Source: a virus
Virus record (IMG/VR): IMGVR_UViG_3300023545_000090
Location: 1 to 7,019 of that record
DNA: 7,019 nucleotides
Direction: 5' to 3' (one strand)
Shown here piece after piece: positions 1 to 7,019 of this stretch. Each line of letters begins with the position of its first letter. The first letter of the stretch is position 1. A model generated the notes under the pieces. It saw only the letters and a program-made list of their open reading frames with translations. It searched no databases and was not told the DNA's origin. The translations under genes and the position numbers were made by a program.

Positions 1-55
1 CTTTCTGCTTTGCGTTCTGCTACTGCTCTGCAAAAATATAAGGAAATTCAGAATA
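1..55. repeat. Terminal redundancy, copy 1 (identical to 6965..7019); overlap from linearising a circular genome
   Basis: CTTTCTGCTTTGCGTTCTGCTACTGCTCTGCAAAAATATAAGGAAATTCAGAATA occurs at both window ends with 55/55 identity. The reading frame is continuous across the junction. Confidence 0.95.
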
Positions 56-2754: not shown

Positions 2755-2786
2755 GGGCGCAAGGTTAATTCCTTGCGCCCTTTTTT
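2755..2786 (+). terminator. Rho-independent terminator closing the long + strand transcription unit
   Basis: A perfect 10-bp GC-rich stem pairs GGGCGCAAGG (2755..2764) with CCTTGCGCCC (2771..2780) around the loop TTAATT. It is followed by TTTTTT (2781..2786) and starts 7 nt after the VP2 stop. On the minus strand the same hairpin lies 7 nt after the stop of the antisense ORF, but no U-tract follows it there. Confidence 0.75.
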
Positions 2787-2787
2787 G

Positions 2788-3048
2788 CTATATTTTCTTT
2801 ATACATATTGTACATTCTATTGTTTTTCGTCTTTTATCTGCCAATAATTCTGATTTATAGCAATATATTGCTCCACCTGTTATTTGCTTTGTTCCGTATC
2901 CATCTTCTCCATATTCGCTTTGGATAATGTCTAGGAGATAGTGTACTGCGTTTCTCTTTAGTCTGAATGGATTACCGTTTAAGTATTCTTTTTCAGCTAT
3001 TACTTTGCCTTCTACTGTTTCTTTGTAGTTATAAACTAATTTATACAT
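2788..3048 (-). CDS. Hypothetical 86-aa protein encoded antisense to all other genes
   Basis: The ORF runs from ATG (3046..3048 on the minus strand) to TAG (2788..2790). The translation has globular-like composition (MYKLVYNYKETVEGKVIAEKEYLNGNPFRLKRNAVHYLLDIIQSEYGEDGYG...) and is not the L/V/I/F-rich junk seen in spurious frames. The only + strand ORF touching this interval is the off-frame 2498..2860 artefact. It stays stop-free for 86 codons on an A-rich strand. I recognise no family. Confidence 0.5.
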   Translation of the reverse strand: MYKLVYNYKETVEGKVIAEKEYLNGNPFRLKRNAVHYLLDIIQSEYGEDGYGTKQITGGAIYCYKSELLADKRRKTIECTICIKKI

Positions 3049-3131
3049 AACTATATCTATTTAAATGTTTATTGTAAAAAGACTTTCTTTTTATCTATTG
3101 CTAAGGTACGAATTTTCTCCGACACTACCAA

Positions 3132-3168
3132 TTAAATGAGTTAAATATCTGTTAAATGTACGTTAAAT
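3132..3168. repeat. Four helically phased (G)TTAAAT repeats; a fifth copy lies at 3061..3066
   Basis: TTAAAT occurs at 3132, 3141, 3152 and 3163, with spacings of 9, 11 and 11 bp. The last three copies are preceded by G. The repeats sit 85-120 bp upstream of the antisense ORF start. Confidence 0.6.
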
Positions 3169-3269
3169 AATGCAAACACGTTTTCAGATAATTCTCATCT
3201 AGCATAAATACCTTCCGTAAAAATCTATATTTTTTTATGAAATAATAAAAATTTTATATTATACTATTT

Positions 3270-3340
3270 ATGTATCTGTTTTGTATTTGTGTGCGTGCGC
3301 ATTTTATACGTACGTACACAATTTAACTAAACAGATACAT
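3270..3340. repeat. Nested imperfect palindrome / ssDNA hairpin (12-bp outer stem plus 12-bp inner stem)
   Basis: The outer arms ATGTATCTGTTT (3270..3281) and AAACAGATACAT (3329..3340) are perfect reverse complements. The inner arms TGTGTGCGTGCG (3288..3299) and CGTACGTACACA (3309..3320) pair at 12/12 positions if two G-T wobbles are allowed. The loop is CATTTTATA. Confidence 0.8.
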
Positions 3341-3386
3341 TACTTTGGTTTGTCTGTTAGAAAAACCTTAGTTTATCGCGGAAAAG

Positions 3387-3406
3387 TTTGTAACTGCTTT
3401 GTAACT
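3387..3406 (+). repeat. Tandem direct repeat TTTGTAACT x2 with 11-bp periodicity
   Basis: TTTGTAACT occurs at 3387..3395 and 3398..3406, separated by GC. The perfect palindrome GAAAATTTTC follows at 3417..3426. Confidence 0.6.
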
Positions 3407-3535
3407 ACCTTTTTATGAAAATTTTCTCCCGAAAATTCCACTCTCTTGTTATAGGTAGGCAAAAGTGGGAATACACTTTCCTAATTACTGCACTTTTGTT
3501 CCTTAGTAACTATTTTACTAATAAATGTTAACAAA

Positions 3536-3568
3536 TTTGGTTGTTTCAAAAACATTTCCTTATCTTTG
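3536..3568 (+). promoter_or_regulatory. Candidate Bacteroidota-type promoter (-33 TTTG / -7 TAnnTTTG)
   Basis: TTTG at 3536..3539 and TATCTTTG at 3561..3568 are separated by 21 nt. The ATG of the first small ORF lies 5 nt downstream at 3573, which would imply a very short or absent leader. This is a motif match only. Confidence 0.3.
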
Positions 3569-3572
3569 CACC

Positions 3573-3782
3573 ATGAAAAATGAATTTATAAAAATTATCA
3601 TCAAAGTAGCTTTGTATGCACTTGGATTGATAGCTGCTTATTTTGGTGTCTCTTCTTTGTCATCATGCAGTACGTCTCACAATATAGTTGCAGGTGGTCG
3701 CACTATTATTGTTAGTGTTGATACCACAATTGTTAAACATAACGGCTTTGTCCGTTCTAAAAATTTTAAGCCTTATGAATAA
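3573..3782 (+). CDS. Small putative lipoprotein, 69 aa (predicted mature peptide about 38 aa)
   Basis: The internal ATG at 3573 gives MKNEFIKIIIKVALYALGLIAAYFGVSSLSSC. This has a basic n-region, a hydrophobic core and a lipobox-like L-S-S-C with Cys32 encoded at 3666..3668. The listed 3525 start would add 16 residues upstream of the promoter-like motif. The stop codon region overlaps the next ORF start (ATGAATAA). Confidence 0.55.
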   Translation: MKNEFIKIIIKVALYALGLIAAYFGVSSLSSCSTSHNIVAGGRTIIVSVDTTIVKHNGFVRSKNFKPYE

Positions 3783-4175: not shown

Positions 4176-5729
4176 ATGGCTCTCTTTCCTCGTTGCAATA
4201 ATCCCGTGCTCGTTGCTGGTCGTCATGGTTTGACTCATGTTGGTTGTCACTCTTGTATTCAATGCCGTGTTGCTGCTCAAGAGCATTTATGTAAGATTTT
4301 AGAGGTTGAGGCCTCAAAACATAAATATGTTGAATTTATTACTAATACGTATGACGATTTACATTTGCCCTACATTGATACTTCTTTTCTCTATCCTTTT
4401 GGTTATGCTCTTCGTGTTCCTAATCGGGTTATTAAAAAGTATAATAGGAAAACTAAAAGTTTTTACTTTGTAGAGGATAAAATTTCTAAATCGTTTCAGC
4501 TTACTGATTTTTCTACTATTGATACTGCTCCTATGTTGCGTGATTATTACGCTCGTATTGATAAATATTATAGTAGATTTCCCTCTCGTTCCCGTGGTAT
4601 TCGTAATAATTCTGTTGTTCCTATACTATGGTATGATGATATTCGAAAATATATAGGTCGTTTAAGAAAATGGTTTTTAAAAGAATATGGAGAAACAATT
4701 CGTTACTACATTATTTGCGAGTATGGTTCCCAATCGTTCCGTCCGCATTATCATCTCCTATTATTCCACAACTCGCCTAGAGCGAGAGCAGATTTTAGGG
4801 TTGTTCGAACTTTGCCCCAATCCACCAAAGAAAATCCCCGAGAAATTTGTGTTAAACTCGATTTGGCTGCGTTATGGGTCTACGGTGATACGACTACAAA
4901 GGTTACAGACGGCAACATGCAGGAATATGTTAGTAAGTATCTTACACAACATTCTGACTTCCCTCGAGTGCTTGACAAGTTTCCACAAAGGAGTTTCCAT
5001 TCCATCTTATTGGGTTCAAAGGACAGATCAGAGGTTAAAGAATTATTCAAGGCTAGAGATTTCGAAACACTTACAACTGATTATGTCGTTAACAAGAAGG
5101 GTATTCGAAGATCTGTTTCCATGTCCGATGCGTATTACTCTCAATTTGCCGTTAGATTTACAGGTTCTTCCGTCTTTAATGTTGAGCAAACTTCTACCCT
5201 ATTTCGTTCGGTTGTATACGTTGCCAGACGATTTTTCACTTCCCATGGAGAAATTTATGACGATTCGTCCGTAAGAGAGTTTTTATTGTGGTTGTTTAAA
5301 CCTTCCACTATTGAGTTATATAAATATACATATCAGTTTCGGGCTGTTCATTGGTATGCAGTTACTTTTGCTAAACCGGTTTATAATAGTTCTGATTCTG
5401 TTAATCCTTTAAAGTCGTTGCTTTATGCTGCTCACCATCACTATTCGTTATCCTCCTATTTAGGTTTGGATTTTTATGAATGTCTTAAGTTACGTTTTGA
5501 CTTCATCGCTTGGAAAGATTATCAAAATATGGTTCAGTATTTCCAAAATTTGGAAAATGATAAATTATTTGCTTATGAAAATTATGCAAGTATTTCTTCG
5601 TTTACTGGTACATATGATTTTAATTGTTTAAAAACACGGTCTATTTTTCAGTATCAAGTTCAAAAAGCTAATATGGCTTTTGTTGAAAATATTAAACACC
5701 GTGATGTTGTTGATTCTTATAAAAATTAA
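4176..5729 (+). CDS. VP4: HUH-superfamily rolling-circle replication initiation protein (VP4 / phiX174 gpA-like), 517 aa
   Basis: Motif I is FITNTYD (aa 54-60, nt 4335..4355). Motif II is HYHLLLF (aa 191-197, nt 4746..4766). Motif III is YVSKYLTQ, with two tyrosines in a Y-x-x-x-Y arrangement (aa 251-258, nt 4926..4949). The N-terminus has the Cys cluster C7...C24-x2-C27-x2-C30 common in microvirus Rep proteins. Confidence 0.92.
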   Translation: MALFPRCNNPVLVAGRHGLTHVGCHSCIQCRVAAQEHLCKILEVEASKHKYVEFITNTYDDLHLPYIDTSFLYPFGYALRVPNRVIKKYNRKTKSFYFVEDKISKSFQLTDFSTIDTAPMLRDYYARIDKYYSRFPSRSRGIRNNSVVPILWYDDIRKYIGRLRKWFLKEYGETIRYYIICEYGSQSFRPHYHLLLFHNSPRARADFRVVRTLPQSTKENPREICVKLDLAALWVYGDTTTKVTDGNMQEYVSKYLTQHSDFPRVLDKFPQRSFHSILLGSKDRSEVKELFKARDFETLTTDYVVNKKGIRRSVSMSDAYYSQFAVRFTGSSVFNVEQTSTLFRSVVYVARRFFTSHGEIYDDSSVREFLLWLFKPSTIELYKYTYQFRAVHWYAVTFAKPVYNSSDSVNPLKSLLYAAHHHYSLSSYLGLDFYECLKLRFDFIAWKDYQNMVQYFQNLENDKLFAYENYASISSFTGTYDFNCLKTRSIFQYQVQKANMAFVENIKHRDVVDSYKN

Positions 5730-5734
5730 TTATT

Positions 5735-7019
5735 ATGGCTAATAAAGTTTTAGGTATGCACCGCCTTAAAAATAAGGTAAACCGCAATGCGTTCGATTTG
5801 TCTCACCGTCACATGTTTACCGCCCAAGTTGGCGAATTGTTGCCAGTTTTTACTCAGTGGGTTAATCCTAATGAGACGTTCCAGATTGGGTATAATGGTA
5901 AAACACGTACCGCTGCCCTTAATTCTGATGCGTTTACTCGTATACGTGAAAATATACAGTATTATTTTGTACCTTTTCAGTCTCTTTGGAAGTACTTTGA
6001 GCAACAGGTTAATAATATGACTAAAGGTGACGCCGGACAGAATATTTCTAAGTTTGCAGCTAGTTCAACCGATGCATTTCCTATTTCTACATCACTTCCT
6101 TTCATTTCTTATGTTGATTTGGCCTCTTGGTTAGATCTTATGTATCAGCATTTACTTGGTGCTGTTCATGCTTATTTAACCAAAGAAAGTTTTGAGAATG
6201 CTACTCCAGTTGGCTTTAAAGATTTCTGTTCAAGATCTTCGTTTTATAGTGATGTTTTTATTTGTGACGGTTACCGCTTGGTTCGTGCCGGTAAATTGCT
6301 TATGTCTTTGGGTTATGGTAATTTTGTTAATGTTATTCAGTACGATATTTTTGCTCAAGCTATTAAGTTTTGTTCTGATAACAAAAAATGGGATAAGGCT
6401 TCTTTTGTATCTTCTAAGTACTCCTTAGACCTTACATCTTTTGAGTGTTCTTCTCTTCTTAATAGTCCTAATCTTTCGATTTTGCCTTTGTTGGCTTATC
6501 ATAAGATTTGTAATGACCATTATCGCAATGAAAAGTGGCAACCTTTTGAGCCTTGGACATGTAACATTGATTATTTGTTGCCTACTTCTAACATGAATGC
6601 TAAAAGTTTCATTAGTGAGACCTCTTTTGTTAGTTTACGGTCTTCTATTCTCGATTTGGAAAACTCTAATCTTCCTATCGATTATTTTACTTCCGTTCTT
6701 CCTCGTGCGCAGTATGGAGATGAGTCTGCAGTTTCTGTTGGTTTGAATAATACAGATGCACTTTTCCGTATTAATGATTCTGCTGATGGTTCTAAAGGTG
6801 CAATTTTTGGCGGTAGTTCTTATAGTGCAGGTGATAGTTTAGAAAAAGCCAATTCTGCGCCTGTTCCTGCTCATGATGGTTATGTTGCTCCTGTAAGAAC
6901 TACTTCTACAGGTCTTCGCCTTGTTGGCTTTAGTGGTAATCTTACTGCTGATGCTTCTTTGAAACTTTCTGCTTTGCGTTCTGCTACTGCTCTGCAAAAA
7001 TATAAGGAAATTCAGAATA
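5735..7019 (+). CDS. VP1: Microviridae major capsid protein (VP1 / F-like), N-terminal part; open at the window end and continues at 1..822
   Basis: ATG at 5735 lies 5 nt after the rep stop, and the frame has no stop through 7019. It is probably absent from the ORF track because it lacks a stop inside the window. The N-terminus MANKVLGMHRLKNKVNRNAFDLSHRHMFTAQVGELLPVF carries the N-x-F-D-L-S-H ... T ... G-x-L-x-P capsid signature. LPLLAYHKICNDHYRNEKWQP matches the conserved A-Y-x-x-I-x-N-[DE]-x-Y-R block. The combined product is 683 aa. Confidence 0.92.
   Translation, partial: MANKVLGMHRLKNKVNRNAFDLSHRHMFTAQVGELLPVFTQWVNPNETFQIGYNGKTRTAALNSDAFTRIRENIQYYFVPFQSLWKYFEQQVNNMTKGDAGQNISKFAASSTDAFPISTSLPFISYVDLASWLDLMYQHLLGAVHAYLTKESFENATPVGFKDFCSRSSFYSDVFICDGYRLVRAGKLLMSLGYGNFVNVIQYDIFAQAIKFCSDNKKWDKASFVSSKYSLDLTSFECSSLLNSPNLSILPLLAYHKICNDHYRNEKWQPFEPWTCNIDYLLPTSNMNAKSFISETSFVSLRSSILDLENSNLPIDYFTSVLPRAQYGDESAVSVGLNNTDALFRINDSADGSKGAIFGGSSYSAGDSLEKANSAPVPAHDGYVAPVRTTSTGLRLVGFSGNLTADASLKLSALRSATALQKYKEIQN
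6965..7019. repeat. Terminal redundancy, copy 2 (identical to 1..55)
   Basis: 55/55 identity with the window start. Confidence 0.95.

What the first reader, a model, noticed from the sequence alone, without database searches (positions are those of the whole stretch)
2788..3048. Antisense 86-aa ORF in a family where all known genes share one strand
In characterised Microviridae (phiX174-like phages, Gokushovirinae) every gene is viral-sense. This 86-codon ORF is on the other strand and converges on VP2 with the terminator hairpin between them. Its upstream region carries phased repeats. Its translation looks like a real soluble protein with mixed charged, aromatic and Gly residues, ending in C-x2-C (TIECTICIKKI). 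It uses AGA Arg and A-ending codons, whereas + strand genes mostly use CGT and T-ending codons. A divergent small gene beside a promoter/operator-like region resembles a regulatory or immunity switch, an anti-defence gene or a moron. I see no obvious helix-turn-helix, so the function is open.
Basis: partly seen in the sequence, partly recalled or inferred. Interest (0 to 1): 0.7.

Follow-up and report, generated by a model that had tools for sequence, protein, structure and literature searches.

The report
Conserved antisense gene in gut microviruses
A small gene on the "wrong" strand of a gut single-stranded-DNA phage is real and widespread, has its own Bacteroidota-type promoter and is gained, swapped and lost like an accessory cassette, which contradicts the working rule that microviruses carry genes on one strand only.

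Summary
The 86-codon ORF at 2788-3048(-) is a genuine protein-coding gene. It belongs to a family of at least 578 clusters (90% identity) of 82-91-aa proteins on microvirus-sized contigs. In 19 distinct microvirus genomes it lies antisense to every other gene and converges on the pilot-protein gene VP2.

Evidence that it is a gene:
- Only this frame is stop-free in 16 homologous regions.
- dN/dS is 0.08-0.37, and every bootstrap interval is below 1.
- AlphaFold gives a confident beta-beta-alpha-beta-beta-beta fold (pLDDT 93).

It sits in a self-contained unit. This has a near-invariant Bacteroidota-type promoter (TTTG-N20-TACCTTTG, degenerate in the window), a ~50-nt leader without a Shine-Dalgarno sequence and with a covarying 7-bp stem-loop, the ORF, and the shared VP2 terminator hairpin.

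The cassette's history is decoupled from the backbone's. It is 67% identical between genomes whose VP1, VP2 and Rep are only 27% identical. It is 34-48% identical between genomes with 85-91% identical Rep. It is duplicated in one genome and deleted or decayed in nine different ways.

No known family or solved structure matches, so the function is inferred: most likely a small cytoplasmic effector in phage-host conflict (anti-defence). The C-x2-C motif is not conserved, and the A-ending codons reflect strand bias. Published microvirus surveys delete reverse-strand genes by rule.

The parts
2788..3048 (-). 86-aa protein-coding gene (ATG 3048-3046, stop 2790-2788); predicted beta-beta-alpha-beta-beta-beta fold
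   Evidence: ORF; 37 and then 578 homolog clusters of 82-91 aa; only stop-free frame in 16 homologs; dN/dS 0.08-0.37 with CI below 1; AF2 pLDDT 93.1, pTM 0.77
2755..2780 (.). GC-rich hairpin (GGGCGCAAGG-N6-CCTTGCGCCC) between the convergent VP2 and antisense genes. It is an intrinsic terminator with a T-run for VP2. It is the only terminator-like element available to the antisense unit, which meets it without a T-run.
   Evidence: Terminator scan; conserved in all relatives next to the gene or next to the empty site
3049..3094 (-). Predicted 5' leader (~45-50 nt): A/T-rich, no Shine-Dalgarno sequence, conserved TTAAAT box at -11 to -16. The transcription start near 3094 is inferred, not measured.
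   Evidence: Position relative to the -7 box; Bacteroidota mRNAs lack SD sequences, have A-rich leaders and a mean 5'UTR of 52 nt (PMC7366714)
3076..3092 (-). 7-bp stem-loop or palindrome in the leader (window AAAAAGA-AAG-TCTTTTT; relatives [A/G]AAAGGA-AAG-TCCTTT[T/C])
   Evidence: 95.7% of cells paired; 2 pairs with compensatory changes; covariation score reached by 0 of 500 shuffles; no compensatory changes in slid controls. Energy alone is not significant.
3101..3132 (-). Promoter of the antisense unit, Bacteroidota sigma-ABfr type. In the window it reads ATTG-N20-TACCTTAG (one mismatch in each box). In relatives it is a perfect TTTG-N20-TACCTTTG at -59 to -63 from the ATG.
   Evidence: consensus from PMC7366714; chance expectation 0.57 matches per 7-kb window on both strands. 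Activity not measured.
2786..3138 (-). Extent of the dispensable cassette (promoter, leader and ORF), defined by comparison with natural empty-site genomes
   Evidence: Empty-site junction in L007 and L008 copy 1 and in the complete 6,742-nt genome L035. Boundaries are approximate to a few nt.
3140..3168 (-). Three phased ATTTAAC repeats (11-nt spacing) just upstream of the -33 box. They are part of the backbone, retained in gene-less genomes. Possible UP-like or bent-DNA element, or another backbone function.
3344..3376 (+). Divergent + strand promoter-like element (window TTTG-N21-TAGTTTAT; relatives ...TAGCTTTG), an inverted near-copy of the antisense promoter ~265 nt away
   Evidence: Inferred from sequence only.

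Best explanation
The ORF is a real gene inside a self-contained, dispensable accessory cassette of about 350 nt that sits antisense in a Bacteroidota-infecting microvirus.

Shown:
- The reading frame is conserved under purifying selection, and the product is predicted with high confidence to be a compact 86-aa alpha/beta protein with no signal peptide or membrane segment.
- The cassette carries a near-invariant host-type promoter (TTTG-N20-TACCTTTG), a leader without a Shine-Dalgarno sequence and with a covarying stem-loop, and it ends at the VP2 terminator hairpin.
- The cassette is exchanged between very different microvirus backbones, occurs as divergent alleles on near-identical backbones, is duplicated in one genome, can share its promoter with other tiny ORFs, and has been deleted or inactivated many independent times.

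Inferred:
- It is transcribed by the host primary-sigma RNA polymerase from the double-stranded replicative form, independently of the + strand programme.
- The antisense orientation aims its strong promoter into the VP2 terminator and away from Rep and the early genes.
- The protein is a conditionally useful cytoplasmic effector in phage-host (or phage-phage) conflict. Most probably it is a small binder that inhibits a host defence system, which would pay off only on hosts that carry that system.

Sub-probabilities: real gene 0.97; independent accessory cassette 0.85; anti-defence as the specific role about 0.35-0.4.
For: Gene reality:
- Homologs are 82-91 aa in 578 clusters.
- Only this frame is open in 16 homologs.
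- dN/dS is 0.08-0.37, with CI below 1.
- AF2 gives pLDDT 93.
- A-rich wobble positions mirror the T3 bias of the + strand genes, whereas spurious antisense ORFs do not show this.

Orientation and synteny:
- The gene is antisense and convergent with VP2 in 19 distinct microvirus genomes.

Transcription unit:
- A perfect Bacteroidota promoter sits at a fixed distance from the ATG, and the promoter/leader block is almost invariant even where the backbone proteins are ~27% identical (consensus).
- The leader stem-loop covaries.
- The terminator hairpin is present.

Accessory and mobile behaviour:
- L010 has VP1, VP2 and Rep at 27% identity but this protein at 67%. L017, L018 and L021-L023 have Rep at 86-91% but this protein at 34-48%.
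- For the divergent alleles, dS is 1.2-1.85 against a backbone dS of 0.4-0.76, which indicates allele replacement. L018 has dS equal to the backbone but dN four times higher.
- MG945831 carries tandem paralogs.
- Extra 41-aa and 52-aa ORFs sit behind the same leader in some genomes.
- Empty-site genomes exist.
- There are nine different decayed alleles. Only 1 of 6 backbone-sampled and 3 of 6 leader-sampled genomes are intact.

Cytoplasmic small protein:
- There is no TM segment or signal peptide and the net charge is near neutral, judged from the sequence.
- There are no family hits.
Against: - No transcription or protein data exist. The promoter is recognised by consensus only, and in the window itself both boxes carry a mismatch (ATTG, TACCTTAG).
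- The functional assignment rests entirely on evolutionary pattern. There is no similarity to any known anti-defence protein, no PADLOC, Pfam, PHROG or NCBIfam hit, and no convincing PDB fold match (best TM 0.42 or lower). The only structural neighbours are uncharacterised phage proteins.
- Overall dN/dS is below 1, so there is no direct sign of an arms race apart from one pair at 0.56.
- The promoter/leader is far more conserved than the protein and survives in genomes where the ORF has decayed (L019, L020, L024). This could mean that antisense transcription or the DNA element itself has a role beyond the protein.
- The host is inferred only from promoter type. No prophage or host-genome match was found.
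Confidence: 0.45

Rival explanations
1. Transcriptional regulator or immunity switch. The protein binds DNA (the leader palindrome, the phased repeats or the divergent + strand promoter), autoregulates, and tunes or represses the + strand programme, for example in a carrier or lysogenic state.
For: - The two promoters are back to back, ~265 nt apart.
- A conserved palindrome lies immediately downstream of the promoter, a typical operator position.
- Conserved basic and aromatic residues sit at the start of the helix (F28-R-L-K/R-K/R-x-A-x-H-Y).
Against: - The fold shows no HTH, RHH, AbrB-like or other known DNA-binding architecture.
- The net charge is near neutral.
- The gene is deleted or decayed in 5 of 6 backbone-sampled genomes, while the + strand promoter and repeats stay. 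It is therefore not needed to run the phage programme.
- The protein diverges to 34-48% identity while the palindrome is almost invariant.
- There is no evidence of lysogeny: nothing was found in one genome for each of 185,579 species.
Confidence: 0.15
2. Superinfection exclusion or inter-phage competition factor. It is expressed constitutively from its own promoter to block related microviruses.
For: - Competition between microviruses is a documented selective force, and hypervariable regions in the pilot protein confer exclusion (Kirchberger 2021, cited in PMC9239249; the content of that paper is from my own knowledge).
- The cassette sits next to the VP2 3' end and shows allelic diversity, duplication and exchange.
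Against: - There is no membrane anchor or signal peptide, features that I recall as usual in injection-blocking proteins.
- The known microvirus mechanism lies within VP2 itself.
- Frequent loss in virome genomes fits a host-dependent benefit as well or better.
Confidence: 0.15
3. The conserved promoter/leader, or antisense transcription itself, is the selected feature (for example RNA priming of complementary-strand synthesis, or immediate-early transcription from a hairpin promoter on the incoming single strand). The ORF is then a passenger that exploits it.
For: - The promoter/leader block is nearly invariant across backbones and outlives the ORF in L019, L020 and L024.
- The virion strand is the template for this gene only.
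- The intergenic + strand folds with z = -6.3.
- The antisense promoter and an inverted near-copy pair in the ssDNA MFE in 8 of 13 genomes (duplex about -14 kcal/mol, z -5 to -7). The geometry would direct RNA polymerase into the ORF.
Against: - Genomes L029-L033 and L035 have lost the -7 box and leader yet are complete virome genomes, so the element is not essential.
- The two arms show no compensatory substitutions, since the + arm is nearly invariant while the antisense arm varies.
- The cassette in unrelated backbones (L010, L015, L016) has no such partner.
- The arm similarity is largely explained by both being promoters.
Confidence: 0.08
4. Chance ORF or annotation artefact in a non-coding spacer.
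For: - Minus-strand ORFs of 82-95 aa occur by chance elsewhere in the window.
- 7 of 8 GenBank records leave the region unannotated.
Against: - The frame stays open at 34-97% identity in hundreds of clusters.
- dN/dS is below 1 with bootstrap support.
- Start, stop and length are conserved.
- The fold is confident.
- Promoter and leader sit at a fixed distance from the ATG.
Confidence: 0.02

Closest known systems
Phage 'morons' (independently transcribed accessory genes inserted between conserved phage genes, in the sense of Hendrix and colleagues; definition recalled from my own knowledge)
   Same: It has its own promoter and a terminator. It is inserted between two conserved genes (VP2 and the early region). 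It is present in some close relatives and absent in others, is non-essential, and is exchanged horizontally.
   Different: - It sits in a ~7-kb ssDNA microvirus, not a tailed dsDNA phage.
- It is antisense to the whole genome.
- Its base composition is fully adapted to the virion-strand bias and does not look foreign.
- Its terminator is shared with VP2.
- Prophage expression is unknown, and no lysogeny was detected.
Anti-defence loci of phages and plasmids (anti-CRISPR operons, T7 ocr-type early genes, anti-defence islands in plasmid leading regions)
   Same: It encodes small ORFan proteins behind a strong, conserved promoter. The locus holds variable gene content (1-2 family copies, or 41-aa and 52-aa ORFs). 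It shows rapid turnover, allele replacement and frequent loss.
   Different: - There is no sequence or fold similarity to any known anti-defence protein.
- There is no associated HTH (Aca-like) regulator.
- The protein is not acidic, so it is not a DNA mimic.
- No functional test exists.
Known microvirus accessory genes (methyltransferases, M15 peptidases) and the inter-family recombination described by Kirchberger et al. 2022
   Same: These are accessory genes shared across microvirus families on a short island of raised nucleotide identity. The published peptidase example has 74% AAI against 21% VP1 AAI. Here the figures are 67% against 27%, and the only nucleotide-level match to the pig microviruses is 2815-3170.
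   Different: Those genes are on the VP1 strand and have recognisable functions. This family is on the opposite strand and would have been removed by that study's curation rule.
Single-strand promoters (F plasmid Frpo; RNA-polymerase-primed minus-strand origin of filamentous phages; both recalled from my own knowledge)
   Same: The template for this gene is the strand that enters the cell. Two inverted promoter-like arms could rebuild a duplex promoter on ssDNA, pointing into the gene.
   Different: There is no covariation between the arms. The partner is absent in other backbones that carry the cassette, and the element is dispensable. This is a resemblance only.

Membership tests
Phage moron / independently transcribed accessory cassette | Present in some genomes and absent from closely related ones at the same site | tested here: met
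   Empty site in L007 and L008 copy 1 and in L035. Partial deletions in L020, L024 and L029-L033 on backbones with 83-91% identical Rep.
Phage moron / independently transcribed accessory cassette | Own promoter | tested here: inconclusive
   A perfect Bacteroidota consensus TTTG-N20-TACCTTTG is conserved at -59 to -63 in relatives and is degenerate in the window. No transcript data are available.
Phage moron / independently transcribed accessory cassette | Own terminator | tested here: inconclusive
   A strong hairpin at 2755-2780 follows the stop codon, but it is shared with VP2 and lacks a T-run in the antisense direction.
Phage moron / independently transcribed accessory cassette | Base composition distinct from flanking phage DNA | tested here: not met
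   The region is as T-rich on the virion strand as the rest of the genome, or more so. The A3 bias mirrors the T3 bias of the + strand genes.
Known anti-defence protein families | Sequence or structural homology to a characterised inhibitor | tested here: not met
   No hit in Pfam, PHROGs, NCBIfam, PADLOC or PDB sequences. Foldseek against PDB gives best TM 0.42 or lower. No dedicated anti-defence library was available.
Known anti-defence protein families | Inhibits a defence system | not testable with these tools
   Requires plating or competition assays.
Canonical microvirus proteins (VP1-VP5, VP8, J/K/E-type) | Homology to, and the same strand as, the core genes | tested here: not met
   No PHROG or Pfam match to any microvirus protein family. 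The gene is on the opposite strand in all contexts.
Zinc-ribbon / C-x2-C metal-binding small proteins | Conserved Cys pairs | tested here: not met
   The first Cys of the C-x2-C is Trp in most homologs. Only C63 is nearly invariant.
HTH / RHH / AbrB-type phage repressors | Recognisable DNA-binding fold | tested here: not met
   The AF2 topology is beta-beta-alpha-beta-beta-beta with a single long helix. No such families or folds were retrieved.
Type IV restriction endonuclease (JGI label on P0021) | Match to a nuclease family model | tested here: not met
   There are no Pfam, NCBIfam or PADLOC hits even at E up to 1. The label occurs on one cluster only.
Frpo-like single-strand promoter | Conserved hairpin on the entering strand that rebuilds the promoter boxes, supported by covariation | tested here: inconclusive
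   The arms pair in the MFE of 8 of 13 genomes with z of -5 to -7. There is no covariation, and no partner exists in L010, L015 or L016.

The most novel reading that the evidence does not exclude
This is the only gene whose template is the packaged strand. It could therefore be transcribed directly from the incoming single-stranded genome. The antisense promoter and its inverted near-copy ~265 nt away would pair into a duplex promoter that points host RNA polymerase into the ORF. That would give an immediate-early (for example anti-defence) product, or an RNA primer, before the vulnerable double-stranded replicative form exists. This would be a phage counterpart of the single-strand promoters in plasmid leading regions.
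Probability: 0.08. Interest if true: 0.92.

Novelty: new variant of a known kind. Interest (0 to 1): 0.75.

Why it matters
Microviruses are the dominant ssDNA phages of the human gut, and they are annotated on the assumption that all genes face one way. The largest curated survey states that it removed every gene oriented opposite to VP1, and it concludes that microvirus families rarely if ever exchange genes across families (PMC9239249). Another study removed opposite-direction genes from microvirus prophages (PMC9753089).

This family shows that the rule hides a widespread gene that:
- is under purifying selection,
- has its own promoter,
- moves between very different microvirus lineages, and
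- turns over rapidly.

It gives a concrete candidate for how tiny ssDNA phages of Bacteroidota deal with host defences or competitors, and it offers a compact, strong Bacteroidota promoter/leader module. It also supports re-annotating the thousands of existing microvirus genomes without a strand filter. The gene's presence or absence may be a marker of host-strain adaptation in gut viromes.

Tried and rejected
1. Homology: Pfam, PHROGs, NCBIfam, PADLOC and PDB sequence searches, with both a single sequence and a profile, gave nothing meaningful for the 86-aa protein. The companion 41-aa and 52-aa ORFs also gave nothing.
2. Fold: Foldseek against PDB returned only low-TM FKBP-, PAS- and roadblock-like matches. 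BFVD returned one microvirus homolog plus uncharacterised phage proteins.
3. The C-x2-C as a metal site is rejected, because it is not conserved.
4. Codon usage as a sign of foreign origin is rejected, because it reflects strand bias.
5. The sigma-70-like TTTACA-17-TATAGT at 3078-3050 is rejected as this gene's promoter. It ends 1 nt before the ATG, and such sites are no more frequent than in shuffles (3 found against 5.3 expected).
6. Prophage or host search: protein-pattern and DNA-pattern scans of genome contigs found nothing. The first scans of viral contigs and metagenome contigs by protein pattern also failed. DNA patterns later worked.
7. The long-range ssDNA pairing of the promoter looked like covariation at first. 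It turned out to be a second promoter in inverted orientation, and no compensatory changes were found.
8. Rfam and tRNA scans of the window and L026 found nothing.
9. The JGI label 'type IV restriction endonuclease' is unsupported.
10. The P0051 match (a 926-aa repeat protein) is a short-motif coincidence.
11. Taxon name: a VP1 search places the backbone near PV067919 only, with everything else at 32% identity or less. I could not test membership of 'Alpavirinae'.

Full report
**The genome**

The window is a complete circular microvirus genome. It has a 55-nt terminal overlap, so the genome is 6,964 nt. Its + strand genes are:
- VP1, starting at 5735 and running across the ends (683 aa; phrog_514)
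- a 149-aa protein
- the pilot protein VP2 (1291-2748; pilot-protein PHROGs)
- small ORFs
- Rep (4176-5729; PF23343)

The closest GenBank record is PV067919, at 82% nucleotide identity. Everything else is at 32% identity or less over the N-terminal half of VP1 that I searched.

**The observation**

The ORF at 2788-3048(-) exists as described. It converges on VP2 with a 10-bp GC-rich hairpin (2755-2780) between them. It is preceded by phased ATTTAAC repeats and uses A-ending and AGA codons. Length alone is not evidence, because chance minus-strand ORFs of 82-95 aa occur inside + strand genes in the same window.

**Is it a gene?**

- A first search found 37 homologs at 65-97% identity, almost all exactly 86 aa, on contigs of about 7 kb.
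- A profile of diverse members found 578 clusters (90% identity), all 82-91 aa. Among the 120 listed, no contig is longer than 10.8 kb.
- An exhaustive HMM scan of 1.84 billion representatives found only about 15 clusters at 50% identity, all about the same length.
- Across 16 homologous regions down to about 40% identity, this frame has zero stops. The other five frames have 54-131 stops.
- Nei-Gojobori dN/dS is 0.08-0.37, and every 95% bootstrap interval excludes 1.
- AlphaFold2 on the family alignment gives pLDDT 93.1 and pTM 0.77. The strands are at 2-12, 15-23, 52-57, 60-68 and 74-85, and a helix is at 31-48.
- Third positions are 59% A, the mirror of the 56% T in the + strand genes. Spurious antisense ORFs lack this pattern. 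So the virion strand keeps its T bias at wobble sites whichever way a gene points. The codon usage does not indicate foreign origin.
- The C-x2-C is not conserved.

**Orientation and synteny**

In 19 distinct microvirus genomes the gene is on the strand opposite to VP1, VP2 and Rep, immediately downstream of and convergent with VP2. These genomes come from human, pig and dog faecal assemblies, GenBank, IMG/VR and one NCBI assembly. Seven of the eight GenBank records with a homolog leave it unannotated.

**The transcription unit**

Upstream of the ATG, relatives carry a perfect TTTG-N20-TACCTTTG at -59 to -63. This matches the Bacteroidota primary-sigma consensus, -33 TTTG and -7 TAnnTTTG (PMC7366714). 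The expected number of chance matches is 0.57 per 7-kb window on both strands.

The block TCGTACCTTTGCAATAGATAAAAGGAAAGTCCTTTTAC is nearly invariant. This holds even in L010, L015, L016, L025 and L028, whose backbones are very different. In the window each box has one mismatch (ATTG, TACCTTAG), so its promoter may be weaker.

The predicted leader of about 45-50 nt is A/T-rich and has no Shine-Dalgarno sequence, as expected for Bacteroidota. It starts with a 7-bp stem-loop. That stem-loop is 95.7% paired, has two compensatory pairs, and its covariation score is reached by 0 of 500 shuffles. Slid controls show no compensatory changes. Palindrome symmetry would covary in the same way, so this result does not separate an RNA hairpin from a DNA operator. 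Transcription itself has not been shown.

**Accessory and mobile behaviour**

- Backbone and cassette histories differ.
  - L010 shares 27% identity in VP1, VP2 and Rep with the window, but 67% in this protein.
  - L014-L016 are similar cases.
  - L017, L018 and L021-L023 share 86-91% Rep identity, but only 34-48% in this protein.
  - For the pig microviruses, the only nucleotide-level match to the window is 2815-3170.
- Synonymous divergence supports this.
  - For same-type alleles, dS equals the backbone's (0.67-1.19 against 0.64-1.13), with dN about twice that of VP2.
  - For other-type alleles, dS is 1.2-1.85 against 0.4-0.76, which indicates allele replacement.
  - L018 has backbone-like dS but four times the dN (omega 0.56).
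- MG945831 carries two tandem paralogs.
- Some genomes place a 41-aa or a 52-aa ORF between the same leader and this gene.
- Two independent assemblies (L007, L008) and a complete 6,742-nt IMG/VR genome (L035) show an empty site that lacks exactly promoter, leader and ORF.
- Nine different decayed alleles were found:
  - a frameshift with a lost stop codon (L019)
  - internal deletions that keep the first 18-20 codons (L020, L024)
  - a 5' truncation (L030)
  - remnants of the last 11 or last 3 codons (L031, L032)
  - scraps (L029, L033)
  - complete loss (L035 type)
- Among genomes sampled without reference to the ORF, 1 of 6 (backbone motif) and 3 of 6 (leader motif) are intact.

**Function**

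No library or solved structure informs it. Foldseek neighbours are low-TM FKBP-, PAS- and roadblock-like folds, plus uncharacterised phage proteins. By my reading of the sequence, the protein has no signal peptide or TM segment and is near neutral in charge. It has no HTH.

The combination of features points to a conditionally beneficial conflict gene:
- a strong conserved promoter,
- a small ORFan product,
- allelic replacement,
- duplication,
- companion micro-ORFs,
- purifying selection where present, and
- frequent loss.

I rank the roles as follows: anti-defence about 0.35-0.4, regulator about 0.15, and superinfection exclusion about 0.15.

The antisense orientation is most simply explained as insulation. 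The promoter fires into the VP2 terminator and not into Rep and the early genes. This is an inference.

**The speculative reading**

The virion strand is the template for this gene alone. The intergenic + strand is highly structured (z = -6.3). The antisense promoter and an inverted near-copy, which is a + strand promoter about 265 nt away, pair in the ssDNA MFE of 8 of 13 genomes (z -5 to -7). The geometry would aim RNA polymerase into the ORF.

Several results count against this reading. The arms do not covary. The partner is missing where the cassette sits in other backbones. Genomes without the element are complete. I give this about 0.08.

**Novelty**

Searches of the held literature found no description of a genuine antisense microvirus gene.
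- Kirchberger et al. [quoted passage not shown]
- Zucker et al. 2022 also removed opposite-direction genes.
- In the study of reekeekee- and roodoodooviruses, reverse-strand calls appear as a gene-predictor error, where a missing Rep was replaced by four reverse-strand genes (PMC9865509).

Inter-family exchange of an accessory peptidase is known, so the mode of spread has precedent. The strand, the family and the promoter-bearing cassette are new. I therefore rate it a new variant of a known kind (moron-like accessory cassette), with interest 0.75.

Noticed in passing
L026 1-1500 and 10468-10529 (ENA ERZ27291894 k141_70495): A 10.5-kb non-microvirus element carries a Rep-like 501-aa protein, SSB, an M15 peptidase, a 265-aa tyrosine integrase and an Ig-like 409-aa protein. 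It also holds a ~620-nt microvirus fragment (repeats, promoter, leader, an intact 83-aa homolog, the terminator and a scrap of VP2) on the strand opposite to its own genes. The fragment is bracketed by 139-nt GC-rich direct repeats that recur on the contig, and the GC-rich repeat region also contains internal palindromes. It may be a real capture (integron/attC-like?) or an assembly chimera. No Rfam or tRNA hits.
   Followed up: partly
window 1-55 and 6965-7019: A 55-nt exact terminal repeat shows that the window is a complete circular genome of 6,964 nt. VP1 (683 aa) starts at 5735 and runs across the ends.
   Followed up: yes
window 3040-3530 (+), especially 3270-3340: The non-coding region folds far better as ssDNA than shuffles do (-59.7 against -33.4 kcal/mol, z -6.3). 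It includes a long hairpin (arms 3270-3284 and 3326-3340, 93% complementary) with an alternating purine-pyrimidine GC core (GTGTGCGTGCGC ... ACGTACGTAC). This is a candidate complementary-strand or Rep origin. L014 has (CGCA)n-type repeats at the equivalent place.
   Followed up: no
window 3140-3168: The phased ATTTAAC repeats (11-nt spacing) are retained in genomes that have lost the antisense gene. They are also conserved in pig microviruses and in L026, so they have a role independent of the ORF.
   Followed up: partly
window 3525-3782 (+), probable start 3573: An 85/69-aa ORF has an N-terminal hydrophobic segment and a lipobox-like LSSC, so it is a putative lipoprotein. It is 48-54% identical in L010, L014 and L015, whose VP1 and Rep show only 25-35% identity to the window's or no detectable match. 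It may therefore be a second laterally shared accessory gene, on the + strand. A perfect TTTG-N21-TATCTTTG lies at 3536-3568.
   Followed up: no
L003:6962-7084, L019:5452-5577, L012:2818-2976; L015:1260-1523 and 1556-1819: Other tiny antisense ORFs share the same promoter and leader. One is a conserved 41-aa ORF (MVTIKFIN.NGKGQITVKDSQKEDVIN.LLAVGYGILKIEQ) and another is a 52-aa ORF. In MG945831 there are two tandem paralogs of the 86-aa family. None matches any family.
   Followed up: partly
window 3101-3132 (-) and 3344-3376 (+): The antisense promoter and a divergent + strand promoter-like element are inverted near-copies that share TTTGGT..GTC..AGAAAA..CCTT.G. The three genomes with decayed ORFs (L019, L020, L024) are among the five in which the two arms no longer pair well. 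This is a post hoc observation on a small sample.
   Followed up: partly
L003 1-205 versus 6396-6599: The first 205 nt of this longer-than-unit-length JGI contig are an inverted copy (91%) of a segment in the small-gene and non-coding region. This could reflect an inversion variant of the accessory region or an assembly artefact.
   Followed up: no
P0021: JGI names one family member 'predicted type IV restriction endonuclease'. No Pfam, NCBIfam or PADLOC model supports this, even at E up to 1.
   Followed up: yes
L032, L031 deletion junctions: The left breakpoints of the independent deletions cluster in the promoter spacer (after TTTGGTAGT...GAGAAAA). At least one (L032) joins AGAAAA in the spacer to AGAAAA in the last codons (VEK*). 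This suggests microhomology-mediated slippage as the loss mechanism.
   Followed up: partly
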